Below, in pieces: positions 2,006 to 2,452 of a stretch of DNA of 4,281 nt; position 1 is the stretch's first letter; every line of letters begins with the position of its first letter. A program made the position numbers and the translations under genes. The notes beneath the pieces were generated by a model. The model saw nothing but the letters and a program-made list of their open reading frames with translations, had not been told where the DNA came from and searched no databases. The stretch is from a virus (Duplodnaviria > Heunggongvirae > Uroviricota > Caudoviricetes): IMG/VR virus record IMGVR_UViG_2778261453_000010, positions 1 to 4,281 of that record. One strand, given 5' to 3'.

Positions 2006-2092
2006 TCACCACCAACGGATTGCCCAGACCAGAACAGCAATGGCCACAATACGAATGGCAAATGCCATTGCCCGAATAAGTTCAGCACTCAT
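2006..2092 (-). CDS. Candidate micro-ORF 4: 28-aa hydrophobic peptide [28 protein letters not shown]
   Basis: ATG at 2092..2090, stop TGA at 2008..2006, one nt before the Rz ATG. Single predicted TM helix. Similar to the C-terminal half of micro-ORF 3 ([16 protein letters not shown] vs ISRALAFAIKWVAVGIAV). No clear SD. Confidence 0.3.
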
Positions 2093-2103
2093 CTTTTTAA
2101 AGT

Positions 2104-2226
2104 TCACGATTTCAGCGCAATGACCAGTTTTGCCAGCCCATACAGCATCGGAGACACAGCAATACCAACAGCCACCCACTTAATAGCAAAAGCCAGCGCT
2201 CTGCTGATGTCATCAGTCACTGTCAC
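2104..2226 (-). CDS. Candidate micro-ORF 3: 40-aa hydrophobic peptide (GTG start) ..TVTDDISRALAFAIKWVAVGIAVSPMLYGLAKLVIALKS
   Basis: GTG at 2226..2224 overlaps the TGA stop of micro-ORF 2 (GTGA), with GGGG upstream. The start is uncertain; the track shows this frame open back to a TTG at 2376. Confidence 0.25.
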   Translation of the reverse strand: MTVTDDISRALAFAIKWVAVGIAVSPMLYGLAKLVIALKS

Positions 2227-2354
2227 CCCAGCAGCCCCGACGAAGACAACATCACCCAGGCGAGGGACAGAAAAAGAGCAACCAGCATTAGTGAAAATGA
2301 AATACCGACAATCACACACAGGACCTTTGCCGGCGTTATGAGTTTGTCTGACAT
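2223..2354 (-). CDS. Candidate micro-ORF 2: 43-aa single-TM peptide MSDKLITPAKVLCVIVGISFSLMLVALFLSLAWVMLSSSGLLG
   Basis: ATG at 2354..2352 has a good SD (AAGGGG, spacing about 5) lying inside the end of micro-ORF 1. Strongly hydrophobic 26-residue core. Stop TGA at 2225..2223. Confidence 0.4.
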   Translation of the reverse strand: MSDKLITPAKVLCVIVGISFSLMLVALFLSLAWVMLSSSGLLG

Positions 2355-2356
2355 AG

Positions 2357-2452
2357 CTACCCCTTAATTGCCACAATTAACTGGGATACTACCCATAAAA
2401 AAGGGATGCTCCAGACCAGCAAAAATTTCCAGTTTGGTAATTGACTAATCAT
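2357..2452 (-). CDS. Candidate micro-ORF 1: 31-aa hydrophobic peptide MISQLPNWKFLLVWSIPFLWVVSQLIVAIKG
   Basis: ATG at 2452..2450 is preceded by GGGAG at about 9-nt spacing. Stop TAG at 2359..2357 is 2 nt before the ATG of micro-ORF 2. The track's longer version starts at a GTG at 2569 and runs through the terminator hairpin, which is unlikely. Confidence 0.35.
   Translation of the reverse strand: MISQLPNWKFLLVWSIPFLWVVSQLIVAIKG

What the first reader, a model, noticed from the sequence alone, without database searches (positions are those of the whole stretch)
2006..2452. Four head-to-tail micro-ORFs encoding 28-43-aa hydrophobic peptides inserted between endolysin and spanin
In lambda and phage 21, R is followed directly by Rz. 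Here 642 bp separate them, and the minus strand carries four consecutive tiny ORFs, each a predicted single TM helix: 2452..2357 (31 aa), 2354..2223 (43 aa, strong SD), 2226..2104 (40 aa, GTG overlapping the previous stop as GTGA) and 2092..2006 (28 aa, stop 1 nt before the Rz ATG). Each successive ORF is shifted by +1 frame. The third and fourth peptides are paralogous (ISRALAFAIKWVAVGIAV vs [16 protein letters not shown]), similar at protein level and less so at DNA level, which suggests selection on the peptides. This could be an array of small membrane peptides acting on the holin, membrane potential or lysis timing (antiholin, toxin-like or exclusion peptides); alternatively it is a multi-TM membrane protein gene broken by serial frameshifts.
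Basis: partly seen in the sequence, partly recalled or inferred. Interest (0 to 1): 0.7.

Follow-up and report, generated by a model that had tools for sequence, protein, structure and literature searches.

The report
Small membrane-peptide genes in lysis cassette
Four tiny genes for single-helix membrane peptides sit between the endolysin and spanin genes of a common E. coli prophage; they are real, conserved and shuffled between phages, but are already catalogued as hypothetical proteins and their probable role in tuning host lysis is untested.

Summary
On the minus strand, 642 bp separate the SAR endolysin R (3180..2647) from Rz (2004..1510), and this gap carries four small hydrophobic ORFs.

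They are not a frameshifted multi-TM gene. They belong to three phage small-protein families: ORF1 is phrog_6632, ORF2 is phrog_4906, and ORF3 and ORF4 are paralogues in phrog_1115/4493. Each family occurs on its own, in other orders, and behind at least five endolysin types in E. coli and Salmonella prophages. Substitutions fit coding in the claimed frames only (dN/dS 0.04-0.49).

- ORF1 starts at TTG 2491 and is 44 aa.
- ORF3 and ORF4 keep only the membrane helix of a 48-60-aa protein.
- A strong intrinsic terminator (2556..2524) lies between R and ORF1.

RefSeq already annotates all four as hypothetical proteins. More than 10% of complete E. coli genomes carry this array. An ORF2 homologue has published RIBOseq support (XECs191/ECs_1966).

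Function is unknown. My best inference is that they are late-expressed accessory inner-membrane peptides that modulate lysis. Interest is moderate: a widespread, testable, uncharacterised slot in a classic lysis cassette.

The parts
2524..2556 (-). Strong intrinsic (rho-independent) terminator hairpin followed by a T-run, 90 nt after the R stop and about 30 nt before ORF1. It is also terminator-like when read on the + strand.
   Evidence: 15-pair stem, tail GTTTTTATGG. (dG -20 kcal/mol). The same element follows the endolysin in L004 and L092, and one with a different stem sequence follows it in L086, L089 and L090.
2357..2491 (-). It has an N-terminal amphipathic segment IDFSKLIRELRLM followed by one TM helix. 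Family phrog_6632.
   Evidence: SD GGGAGG, dG -10.2. Start-codon switching TTG/ATG/GTG at the same codon. dN/dS 0.15 against L086.
2223..2354 (-). ORF2, 43 aa, one TM helix, family phrog_4906. It starts 2 nt after the ORF1 stop and has an AAGGGG SD.
   Evidence: dN/dS 0.26-0.49 against four homologues. The homologue XECs191/ECs_1966 has RIBOseq support in O157:H7 Sakai.
2104..2226 (-). ORF3, 40 aa from GTG 2226 (GTGA overlap with the ORF2 stop) or 38 aa from GTG 2220. It is the TM-helix part only of the 48-60-aa family phrog_1115/4493.
   Evidence: (dN/dS 0.04-0.13). The AF2 model of the full-length family has helices at 2-16 and 23-59, and ORF3 begins at family residue 23.
2006..2092 (-). ORF4, 28 aa, a shortened paralogue of ORF3 (the ...RWW* type). 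It has no SD. Its last codons and stop (cgt tgg tgg tga) run into the stretch just upstream of the Rz ATG, which is where the Rz SD is predicted.
   Evidence: dN/dS 0.10 against L089; P0237, P0249 and P0251 show the same short-start or RWW variants.
1510..2004 (-). Rz i-spanin (164 aa), with the embedded Rz1 o-spanin at 1784..1599.
   Evidence: Pfam PF03245 E=3e-50. Rz1 ORF listed; its cysteine-containing signal-peptide end (VVSACG) and lipobox status are read from that translation, not from a tool.
2647..3180 (-). SAR-type endolysin R (177 aa).
   Evidence: Pfam PF00959 E=1.4e-24. PGAP names it 'lysozyme'. The SAR assignment rests on the hydrophobic N-terminus seen in the translation, not on a tool result.
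3231..3575 (-). YdfR/DUF1327 protein (114 aa) between holin and endolysin.
   Evidence: Pfam PF07041 E=4.6e-43.
3580..3786 (-). Phage-21-type class II holin (pinholin family), 68 aa.
   Evidence: Pfam PF04971 E=1.2e-32.

Best explanation
The 642-bp spacer holds four independent small genes from three conserved families of enterobacterial lambdoid-phage microproteins. Each encodes essentially one inner-membrane helix with almost no residues beyond it.

Shown:
- They are separate coding units under purifying selection.
- They behave as interchangeable modules at the endolysin-to-spanin junction. They occur in different numbers and orders, directly after a strong intrinsic terminator that follows the endolysin gene, and tightly packed against the next gene (2-nt gap, GTGA overlap, or stop 1 nt before the Rz ATG).

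Inferred:
- No room for a promoter exists between the terminator and ORF1, and none was predicted. The genes are therefore transcribed only when Q-modified late RNA polymerase reads through the terminator, that is, together with S, R and Rz/Rz1.
- They are translated in series by SD-dependent initiation (ORF1, ORF2) and by coupling or re-initiation (ORF3, ORF4, then Rz).
- They insert N-in into the inner membrane.
- There they act as dispensable accessory factors that tune a membrane step of lysis: holin triggering, SAR-endolysin release or i-spanin behaviour. The likely route is helix-helix contacts. They are not lytic agents themselves.

In this particular array, ORF3 and ORF4 have lost the N-terminal cytoplasmic helix of their family, so they may be weaker or altered versions.
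For: Coding status and independence:
- PHROG hits exist for each ORF.
- dN/dS is 0.04-0.49 in the claimed frames only.
- ORF length is conserved across homologues: 43-44 aa for ORF2, and 60 or 48 aa for the ORF3 family.
- ORF1's start codon switches between TTG, ATG and GTG at one codon, each with an SD.

Module shuffling:
- PhiR12_2_star: R-terminator-ORF3(full)-ORF2-Rz.
- Stx phages and Sakai Sp10: R-ant-ORF2-Rz.
- L017: R-ant-ORF1'-ORF2-ORF3-ORF4-Rz.
- L092: R-terminator-(ORF1-like ...IRWW*)-Rz.
- L086: ORF1-ORF2 pair with the same 2-nt spacing behind an M15 endolysin.
- L089-L091: ORF4-type gene behind M15 and GH108 endolysins.
- One identical Salmonella ORF3-family protein lies behind S21-type, lambda-S-type/GH19 and HP1-type cassettes, usually 10-20 nt before Rz.

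Expression and structure:
- A terminator follows the endolysin in six cassettes, and no minus-strand promoter was predicted.
- AF2 predicts a long helix at residues 23-59 with pLDDT about 87.
- RIBOseq signal and a one-TM inner-membrane prediction exist for the ORF2 homologue XECs191.

Prevalence and viability:
- The array is intact in 73 of 73 IMG/VR loci that cover it.
- It is present in 589-621 of 5426 complete E. coli genomes.
- It occurs in phages propagated on E. coli C and K-12, such as PhiR5_1.

Precedent: small single-pass membrane proteins needed for or modulating lysis include the Mu gp25 releasin (PMC9239132) and LambdaSo Lcc6 (bioRxiv 10.1101/2024.01.23.576932).
Against: - No experiment links any of the three families to lysis.
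- They are dispensable in principle. R abuts Rz in K-12 Qin, and a large ORF abuts Rz in 32 of 41 Rz loci from other species.
- They accompany at least five different holin/endolysin types. This argues against a specific holin or SAR-endolysin partner.
- Some family members lie outside lysis cassettes, after tail-fibre or SASA/DUF6645 genes (L087, L176).
- ORF3 and ORF4 lack the family's N-terminal helix, and ORF4 has no SD.
- The ORF2-ORF3-ORF4 block is nearly clonal (99% or more identical). Selection since the truncation therefore cannot be tested.
- The RIBOseq signal is modest (RPKM 12.6, RCV 0.43), comes from uninduced cultures, and is for a homologue rather than this locus.
- There is no Pfam, NCBIfam or PADLOC hit.
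Confidence: 0.45

Rival explanations
1. Mixed status. ORF1 and ORF2 are functional genes. ORF3 and ORF4 are 5'-truncated relics left by illegitimate recombination between cassettes. They may or may not be translated and have no function of their own.
For: Full-length family members are 48-60 aa with an N-terminal basic helix. The window's copies start exactly where that helix ends. The ORF2/ORF3 joint shows a GTGAC-A-GTGAC microhomology. ORF4 has no SD, and ORF3 has only a weak one. The block is nearly clonal, so its intactness could simply reflect youth.
Against: Both copies retain start codons placed for coupling (GTGA overlap; ATG 11 nt after the ORF3 stop). The short 'MSA(E/D)(L/F)IRA...' start recurs independently on an ORF3-type body (P0237). 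The only indel seen in ORF4 is in frame (L061). The array was intact in 73 of 73 loci.
Confidence: 0.3
2. The genes are not lysis genes. They are cargo ('moron'-like) membrane peptides that act on the host or on competing phages, for example by superinfection exclusion at the inner membrane as proposed for HK97 gp15-type proteins, or by altering membrane physiology.
For: They are variable and dispensable, and they shuffle between unrelated cassettes. The R-Rz slot also accepts an obvious cargo gene, the ant antirepressor. Family members also occur next to tail-fibre genes. An ORF2 homologue gives RIBOseq signal in uninduced Sakai cultures.
Against: A strong terminator lies immediately upstream and no promoter was predicted between it and ORF1. 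Expression from a repressed prophage is therefore not expected. There is no PADLOC hit. The RIBOseq signal is low and is compatible with spontaneous induction.
Confidence: 0.2
3. The ORFs serve mainly as leader or relay ORFs. Ribosomes translating them are handed on to Rz by coupling, which restores Rz/Rz1 translation after the terminator hairpin has uncoupled it from R.
For: Junctions are tight throughout (2-nt gap, GTGA overlap, 11-nt gap, stop 1 nt before the Rz ATG). Whichever small ORF precedes Rz ends in ...IRWW*, directly ahead of the Rz ATG. The same junction precedes a small lipoprotein gene in L090.
Against: Relay ORFs need no particular peptide sequence, yet all three families show purifying selection on the amino-acid sequence and conserved hydrophobic helices. 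Rz also has its own SD-like GGTGGTGA.
Confidence: 0.1
4. ORF1 is a type I toxin-like peptide controlled by an antisense RNA. The RNA would start at the + strand promoter-like site 2348..2377 and end at the bidirectional terminator.
For: A 9/12 promoter match with a TG extension lies antisense to the ORF1/ORF2 joint. Similar 9/12 matches occur at the same place in L086 and L017. The hairpin is followed by a T-run on the + strand too (sequence).
Against: Promoter-like hits are at chance frequency in this window (2 found, 2.6 expected). The site lies inside coding sequence, so its conservation is confounded. The putative 187-nt RNA folds with z = -1.8, driven mostly by the terminator. There is no Rfam match.
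Confidence: 0.05
5. The region is one multi-TM membrane-protein gene broken by serial frameshifts or sequencing errors.
For: The frame shifts in the same direction at each of the three transitions. GGGG runs lie near the ORF2/ORF3 joint. Rare fused ORF2-ORF3 proteins exist (P0094 and P0114).
Against: The fusions are singletons among hundreds of clusters. The units occur separately and in a different order in other phages. The same four-ORF sequence is found in about 600 complete genomes. The long alternative frame over ORF2 (the 90-aa call, phrog_3246) shows dN/dS above 1. No Pfam domain spans the region.
Confidence: 0.02

Closest known systems
PHROG families phrog_6632, phrog_4906 and phrog_1115/phrog_4493 (all 'unknown function'), and the RefSeq hypothetical proteins WP_001043230, WP_001280935, WP_042004856 and WP_032140280
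   Same: These are the same sequences or families. ORF1, ORF2 and ORF3/ORF4 match at E=1e-12 to 1e-25, and ORF4 at E=4e-6. PGAP annotates all four ORFs in strain EC931.
   Different: The catalogue entries carry no function and partly wrong gene models. The 70-aa ORF1 call runs through the terminator. The 51-aa and 90-aa ORF3 calls (phrog_3246) read out of frame over ORF2.
XECs191 / ECs_1966 of E. coli O157:H7 Sakai prophage Sp10 (Huecker et al. 2017, PMC5597208)
   Same: It is an ORF2-family member (49 aa) lying immediately upstream of Rz. It was reported as a novel translated small gene by RIBOseq and predicted to be an inner-membrane protein with one TM helix.
   Different: It follows an antirepressor gene rather than ORF1 and has a 6-residue N-terminal extension. 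No function was assigned.
Phage Mu gp25 'releasin' (DUF2730; Chamblee et al. 2022, PMC9239132)
   Same: It is a small membrane protein encoded next to a SAR endolysin and spanins, and it acts as an extra lysis factor at the inner membrane.
   Different: There is no sequence relationship: no Pfam hit of any kind was found. gp25 is essential for Mu lysis in a holin-less system. The present ORFs are dispensable and also occur with non-SAR endolysins.
Shewanella phage LambdaSo Lcc6 (bioRxiv 10.1101/2024.01.23.576932)
   Same: It is a 65-aa single-pass membrane protein required together with a pinholin/SAR-endolysin/spanin set. This is a precedent that lambda-like phages use extra microproteins at the holin level.
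   Different: Lcc6 has an N-terminal TM followed by a 43-aa cytoplasmic tail and is encoded far from the lysis genes. The peptides here have a C-terminal TM and sit inside the cassette.
Holins and antiholins (S21-68/S21-71 pinholin, lambda S107, P1 LydB, T4 RI)
   Same: They are small membrane proteins in lysis cassettes that set lysis timing through TM-TM interactions.
   Different: ORF1-4 lack the charged C-terminal tail and the dual-start motif typical of holins. They have no PF04971 hit. The 16-residue likeness of ORF3 to pinholin TMD2 is not significant.

Membership tests
phrog_6632 (ORF1), phrog_4906 (ORF2), phrog_1115/phrog_4493 (ORF3, ORF4) | Significant match to the family profile HMM | tested here: met
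   ORF1 E=1.3e-12 over profile positions 2-43 of 45. ORF2 E=4.5e-21. ORF3 E=6.4e-25 and 5e-17. ORF4 E=3.8e-6. The full-length ORF3 homologue covers phrog_4493 positions 1-56.
phrog_1115/phrog_4493 family, full-length architecture | N-terminal basic helix (M.KYKRILLRLTMKNGLE..AP) followed by one long TM helix, 48-60 aa in total | tested here: not met
   The window's ORF3 and ORF4 begin at family residue 23 or later and carry only the TM helix. Full forms are seen in L004 and L089-L091.
Phage 21 holin family (Pfam PF04971, pinholin) | Sequence or profile similarity to the two-TMD S21 holin | tested here: not met
   No hmmscan hit at E<=1. BLASTP finds only 8 of 16 identities in TMD2. hhalign probability is 6.9%. 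No holins appear among the 21 profile-search hits.
Holin/antiholin (functional class) | Small membrane protein encoded in the lysis cassette | tested here: met
   The ORFs lie between R and Rz and each contains a TM-grade hydrophobic window.
Holin/antiholin (functional class) | Charged hydrophilic C-terminal cytoplasmic tail and/or a dual-start motif | tested here: not met
   The C-termini are KG, G, KS and RWW, and no paired in-frame starts of the S107/S105 kind are present.
Holin/antiholin (functional class) | Changes lysis timing or membrane potential when expressed or deleted | not testable with these tools
   This needs genetics and physiology.
Mu releasin (DUF2730) | Match to the DUF2730 Pfam model | tested here: not met
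   No Pfam family matched any of the four peptides at E<=1.
Two-component or unimolecular spanins | i-spanin: N-terminal TMD plus a long periplasmic coiled coil. o-spanin or u-spanin: lipobox signal. | tested here: not met
   The peptides are 28-44 aa with 3 or fewer residues after the helix and no lipobox. The true Rz/Rz1 pair lies downstream.
Type I toxin-antitoxin | Small hydrophobic toxin plus an overlapping antisense RNA with its own promoter | tested here: inconclusive
   A hydrophobic peptide is present. The antisense promoter-like site scores 9/12 but such hits are at chance frequency and it lies inside coding sequence. There is no Rfam hit.
Frameshifted multi-TM gene (pseudogene) | Relatives with one continuous ORF colinear with the fragments | tested here: not met
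   Only singleton ORF2-ORF3 fusions were found. The units occur independently and reordered elsewhere.
Known anti-phage defence proteins (PADLOC) | Match to a PADLOC model | tested here: not met
   No hit at E<=0.1.

The most novel reading that the evidence does not exclude
The endolysin-to-spanin junction of enterobacterial lambdoid phages is a dedicated slot for interchangeable C-terminally anchored microproteins. At least three unrelated families occur here, plus a fourth seen in L126 and L169. They are made only late and are translationally chained to Rz. Together they would form a previously unrecognised class of lysis regulators, for example gating i-spanin or holin helices in the inner membrane, so that phages tune lysis timing by swapping or stacking them.
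Probability: 0.25. Interest if true: 0.65.

Novelty: new variant of a known kind. Interest (0 to 1): 0.4.

Why it matters
The lambda and phage-21 lysis cassette is a textbook system thought to be fully enumerated: holin/antiholin, endolysin and spanins. Work on Mu (releasin) and LambdaSo (Lcc6) shows that extra small membrane proteins can be decisive.

Here, three uncharacterised microprotein families occupy the R-Rz junction. The exact array is in more than 10% of complete E. coli genomes, including ST131 strain EC958. Parts of it are in about a third, and related genes occur in Stx phages and in Salmonella prophages.

If these peptides modulate lysis timing, they would influence phage burst and, in Stx phages, possibly toxin release. 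They are short, modular and easy to delete or transplant into lambda, so the question is directly testable.

If they prove inert, the locus still documents mis-modelled gene calls in RefSeq and PHROGs, and a conserved terminator inside the lysis operon.

Tried and rejected
- Pinholin TMD2 homology of ORF3. This was prompted by the chimeric protein P0120 (S21 holin N-terminus joined to the ORF3 C-terminus) and a BLASTP match of 8 of 16 residues. I rejected it as homology: hhalign probability is 6.9%, there is no PF04971 hit, and no holins appear in the exhaustive profile search.
- Pfam, NCBIfam, PADLOC and Rfam gave nothing for the four ORFs or the region.
- Literature searches found no paper describing these genes apart from the RIBOseq catalogue (PMC5597208). 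I searched for peptide strings, accessions, 'between R and Rz' and PhiR12.
- A within-array selection test was uninformative. The 80 IMG/VR loci were selected for 100% ORF3 identity, and the ORF2-ORF3-ORF4 block is 99% or more identical wherever it is complete.
- One-genome-per-species Rz loci produced only one further homologue (L092), so they gave little extra diversity. They did show that a large ORF directly abutting Rz is the norm.
- The 90-aa ORF (2376..2104, phrog_3246) and the 70-aa ORF1 call were considered as real proteins and rejected. The former has dN/dS above 1 over the ORF2-overlapping part. The latter translates the terminator hairpin.
- The idea that the small ORFs replace spanins in Rz-less cassettes (L086, L089-L091) was considered and dropped. 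The peptides have no periplasmic domain.
- A first attempt at search for related loci with ORF2 failed because the query was under 48 aa.
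Full report
**Setting.** The window is the late or lysis region of an E. coli lambdoid prophage, with the genes on the minus strand. In order they are:
- a phage-21-type class II holin, 3786..3580 (PF04971, E=1.2e-32)
- a YdfR/DUF1327 protein, 3575..3231
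- a lysozyme-family endolysin with a hydrophobic SAR-like N-terminus, 3180..2647 (PF00959)
- the 642-bp region in question
- Rz, 2004..1510 (PF03245, E=3e-50), with Rz1 embedded at 1784..1599

Downstream lie a 74-aa ORF (phrog_2571), a TonB_C-domain lipoprotein, a YlcI/YnfO (DUF3950) gene on the other strand, and an HNH endonuclease gene.

**Check of the observation.** All four ORFs exist at the stated coordinates, with the stated lengths, start codons and junctions.
- Each contains a 19-residue stretch with mean Kyte-Doolittle hydropathy of 1.9-2.9, at or above that of the pinholin TMD2.
- ORF3 and ORF4 are paralogues. Both match phrog_4493 and align with the same family, while their DNA is identical at only about 55% of aligned positions.
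- The same-direction frame shift between successive ORFs is real. With three transitions its chance probability is about 0.07 (my arithmetic), so it means little.

**Are they genes?** Yes, at the family level.
- Each ORF hits a PHROG family of unknown function: ORF1 phrog_6632, ORF2 phrog_4906, ORF3 and ORF4 phrog_1115/4493.
- The large protein database holds 13 clusters related to ORF1, 103 to ORF2 and 121 to ORF3. They come from E. coli, E. marmotae, Salmonella, Providencia and Cronobacter, and their lengths are strikingly constant: 43-44 aa for ORF2, and 60 or 48 aa for ORF3.
- Nei-Gojobori comparisons of the window with divergent DNA homologues give dN/dS of 0.15 (ORF1), 0.26-0.49 (ORF2), 0.04-0.13 (ORF3) and 0.10 (ORF4). 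Differences concentrate at third codon positions.
- The two alternative frames give ratios of 0.5-9 and contain stops.
- An ORF2 homologue in O157:H7 Sakai prophage Sp10 (XECs191, now ECs_1966) was reported as translated on RIBOseq evidence: translatome RPKM 12.6 and RCV 0.43 in the first condition listed. It was predicted to be an inner-membrane protein with one TM helix (PMC5597208).
- RefSeq/PGAP already annotates all four ORFs as hypothetical proteins.

**Corrections to the gene models.**

ORF1 should start at TTG 2491 and be 44 aa.
- The TTG has the best SD in the region (GGGAGG, -10.2 kcal/mol).
- Homologues start at exactly this codon with ATG (L086) or GTG (L092), each behind its own SD.

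The 70-aa database version instead translates through a terminator hairpin.

ORF3 and ORF4 are shortened members of their family.
- Full-length proteins read M.KYKRILLRLTMKNGLE..APVTDDIS... followed by the TM helix.
- An AlphaFold model of the family shows a low-confidence helix at residues 2-16 and a confident helix at 23-59.
- The window's ORF3 begins at family residue 23 and ORF4 at about the same point, so both are essentially bare TM helices.
- ORF3 has GTG starts at 2226 (GTGA overlap with the ORF2 stop) and 2220 (weak GGGGT SD). ORF4 has an ATG 11 nt after the ORF3 stop and no SD.
- A short start of the ORF4 kind (MSADFIRA...) recurs on an ORF3-type body in another lineage (P0237).

The 90-aa ORF 2376..2104, which defines phrog_3246, is a miscall. 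Its N-terminal half overlaps ORF2 in a frame with dN/dS above 1.

**The frameshifted-gene alternative is refuted.** The units are found separately and in other orders:

| Source | Arrangement |
|---|---|
| PhiR12_2_star (L004) | R-terminator-ORF3(full, 60 aa)-ORF2-Rz |
| Stx phages P27 and P14437, Sakai Sp10 | R-antirepressor-ORF2-like-Rz |
| L017 | R-ant-ORF1'-ORF2-ORF3-ORF4-Rz |
| L092 | R-terminator-one ORF1-like gene ending IRWW*-Rz |
| L086 | Diverged ORF1-ORF2 pair, same 2-nt spacing, behind a holin_8/holin_3_7/M15-peptidase cassette with no Rz homologue |
| L089-L091 | Full-length ORF4-type gene behind M15 or GH108 endolysins |
| Salmonella (L173-L175, L178-L180) | One identical ORF3-family protein behind S21-type, lambda-S-type/GH19 and HP1-type cassettes, usually 10-20 nt before Rz |

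Fused ORF2-ORF3 proteins exist only as singletons (P0094, P0114).

**The terminator.** A strong intrinsic terminator (15-pair stem, dG -20 kcal/mol, T-run) lies at 2556..2524, about 30 nt before ORF1.
- The same arrangement, endolysin stop then terminator then small TM gene, recurs in L004 and L092.
- It also recurs behind the M15 and GH108 endolysins, with a different stem sequence.
- No minus-strand promoter was predicted between R and Rz.

I infer that these genes, like Rz/Rz1 and everything downstream, are transcribed only by Q-antiterminated late RNA polymerase.

**Prevalence.**
- 80% or more of the 851-bp region occurs in 589 of 5426 complete E. coli genomes.
- The ORF3-ORF4-Rz joint occurs in 621 genomes. 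The full-length matches listed were 99.2-100% identical, and they include ST131 strain EC958. Partial matches, mostly the ORF3 core, occur in 1868 genomes.
- The array is intact in all 73 IMG/VR loci that span it.
- It is present in phages grown on E. coli C and K-12, such as PhiR5_1 and vB_EcoS-569R3.
- R abuts Rz directly in K-12 Qin. In 32 of 41 usable Rz loci from one-genome-per-species sampling, a large ORF ends at the Rz start. Only L092 among those loci carried a homologue of the families.

The array is therefore a derived, accessory feature of E. coli and Salmonella lambdoid phages. Two loci (L126, L169) carry yet another, unrelated hydrophobic ORF of about 30 aa in the same slot.

**Mechanism.**

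Shown:
- separate, conserved, hydrophobic single-helix peptides
- modular occupancy of the endolysin-spanin junction
- a terminator upstream
- tight start/stop spacing, including a stop 1 nt before the Rz ATG

Inferred:
- late-only co-expression with the lysis proteins
- serial, partly coupled translation
- N-in insertion into the inner membrane with almost no periplasmic residues
- an accessory role in a membrane step of lysis

The precedents are the Mu gp25 releasin (PMC9239132) and LambdaSo Lcc6. There is no sequence relationship to releasin or holins, and Lcc6 could not be compared. Because the families accompany at least five holin/endolysin types, their most constant neighbour is Rz. An interaction with the i-spanin TMD is therefore as plausible as one with the holin.

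I put about 0.9 on 'independent, conserved small genes, not a pseudogene', and about 0.45 on the full late-expressed lysis-modulator model. The main rivals are:
- ORF3 and ORF4 are inert truncated relics (0.3; compatible with the rest of the model)
- cargo or exclusion peptides unrelated to lysis (0.2)
- relay ORFs for Rz translation (0.1)
- a type I toxin-like ORF1 with an antisense RNA (0.05)

**Novelty and verdict.** The sequences themselves are already in RefSeq and PHROGs as hypothetical proteins, and one family has published RIBOseq support. I could not find any description of them as a modular set of lysis-cassette microproteins, or any functional study. If they work as inferred, they would be a new variant of a known kind: accessory small membrane proteins of phage lysis. 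The finding is real, common and testable, but no mechanism has been demonstrated. Interest is 0.4.

Noticed in passing
window 623..964 (-): A 113-aa ORF whose likely product is a lipoprotein of about 110 aa (lipobox LVMGC, read from the translation). It carries a TonB C-terminal domain (PF03544, E=5.5e-15) and sits in the 'bor-like' cargo slot downstream of Rz. It is absent from the otherwise near-identical EC931 prophage (L001). It could interfere with TonB-dependent uptake.
   Followed up: partly
window 2524..2556 (-); also L004, L092, L086, L089, L090 just after the endolysin stop: A strong intrinsic terminator (dG -17 to -20) inside the lysis operon, directly after the endolysin gene. It is conserved across cassettes with three different endolysin types and has a different stem sequence in the M15/GH108 set. 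It is terminator-like on both strands.
   Followed up: partly
L090 3119..3301; L089 3188..3301; degenerate copy in L086 3262..3387: A 60-aa lipoprotein (lipobox LLVGC, phrog_7528, unknown function) starts 1 nt after the ...RWW* stop of the ORF4-type gene. This is the same junction that Rz occupies in the window, in cassettes that lack an Rz homologue.
   Followed up: partly
L126 about 2409..2504 and L169 about 2403..2504: A fourth, unrelated hydrophobic ORF of about 30 aa lies between R and Rz in two other cassettes (MSMICFFMAALLAFNGNDAWPWFLAVGVLMS and MSPSSICFIVAGILTCLGMSGWGWFVFVGVILL). This suggests the slot attracts small hydrophobic genes in general.
   Followed up: no
protein P0120 (ENA contig, 554 bp): A chimeric 59-aa protein joins the S21-type holin N-terminus to the ORF3 C-terminus at the shared WVA(I/V)GV motif. 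It is either a real recombinant or an assembly artefact. The underlying similarity is not statistically significant.
   Followed up: yes
window 2348..2377 (+): A promoter-like site (CTGACA-18-CACAAT with a TG extension) lies antisense to the ORF1/ORF2 joint. Equivalent 9/12 matches occur in L086 and L017. Together with the bidirectional terminator it could give an antisense RNA of about 180 nt over ORF1. The hits are at chance frequency and the site lies inside coding sequence.
   Followed up: partly
L001 3653..3925 compared with the window near 3180..3231: The EC931 prophage carries about 293 bp extra between YdfR and R, including a + strand hypothetical ORF, relative to the window. This is another mosaic difference inside the cassette.
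   Followed up: no
window 3841..3867 (-) and 3912..3929 (-): Two terminator-like hairpins lie just upstream of the holin gene, after the C-terminal end of a DUF6645-type gene (4281..4084). They may be late-operon terminators that Q-modified polymerase reads through.
   Followed up: no
L093-L116 and other loci: Many non-enterobacterial assemblies (Bacillus relatives, Flavobacteria, actinomycetes, MAGs) contain an Rz locus with the same 68% match to the query, on short contigs. This most likely reflects phage lambda control-DNA contamination of those assemblies.
   Followed up: no
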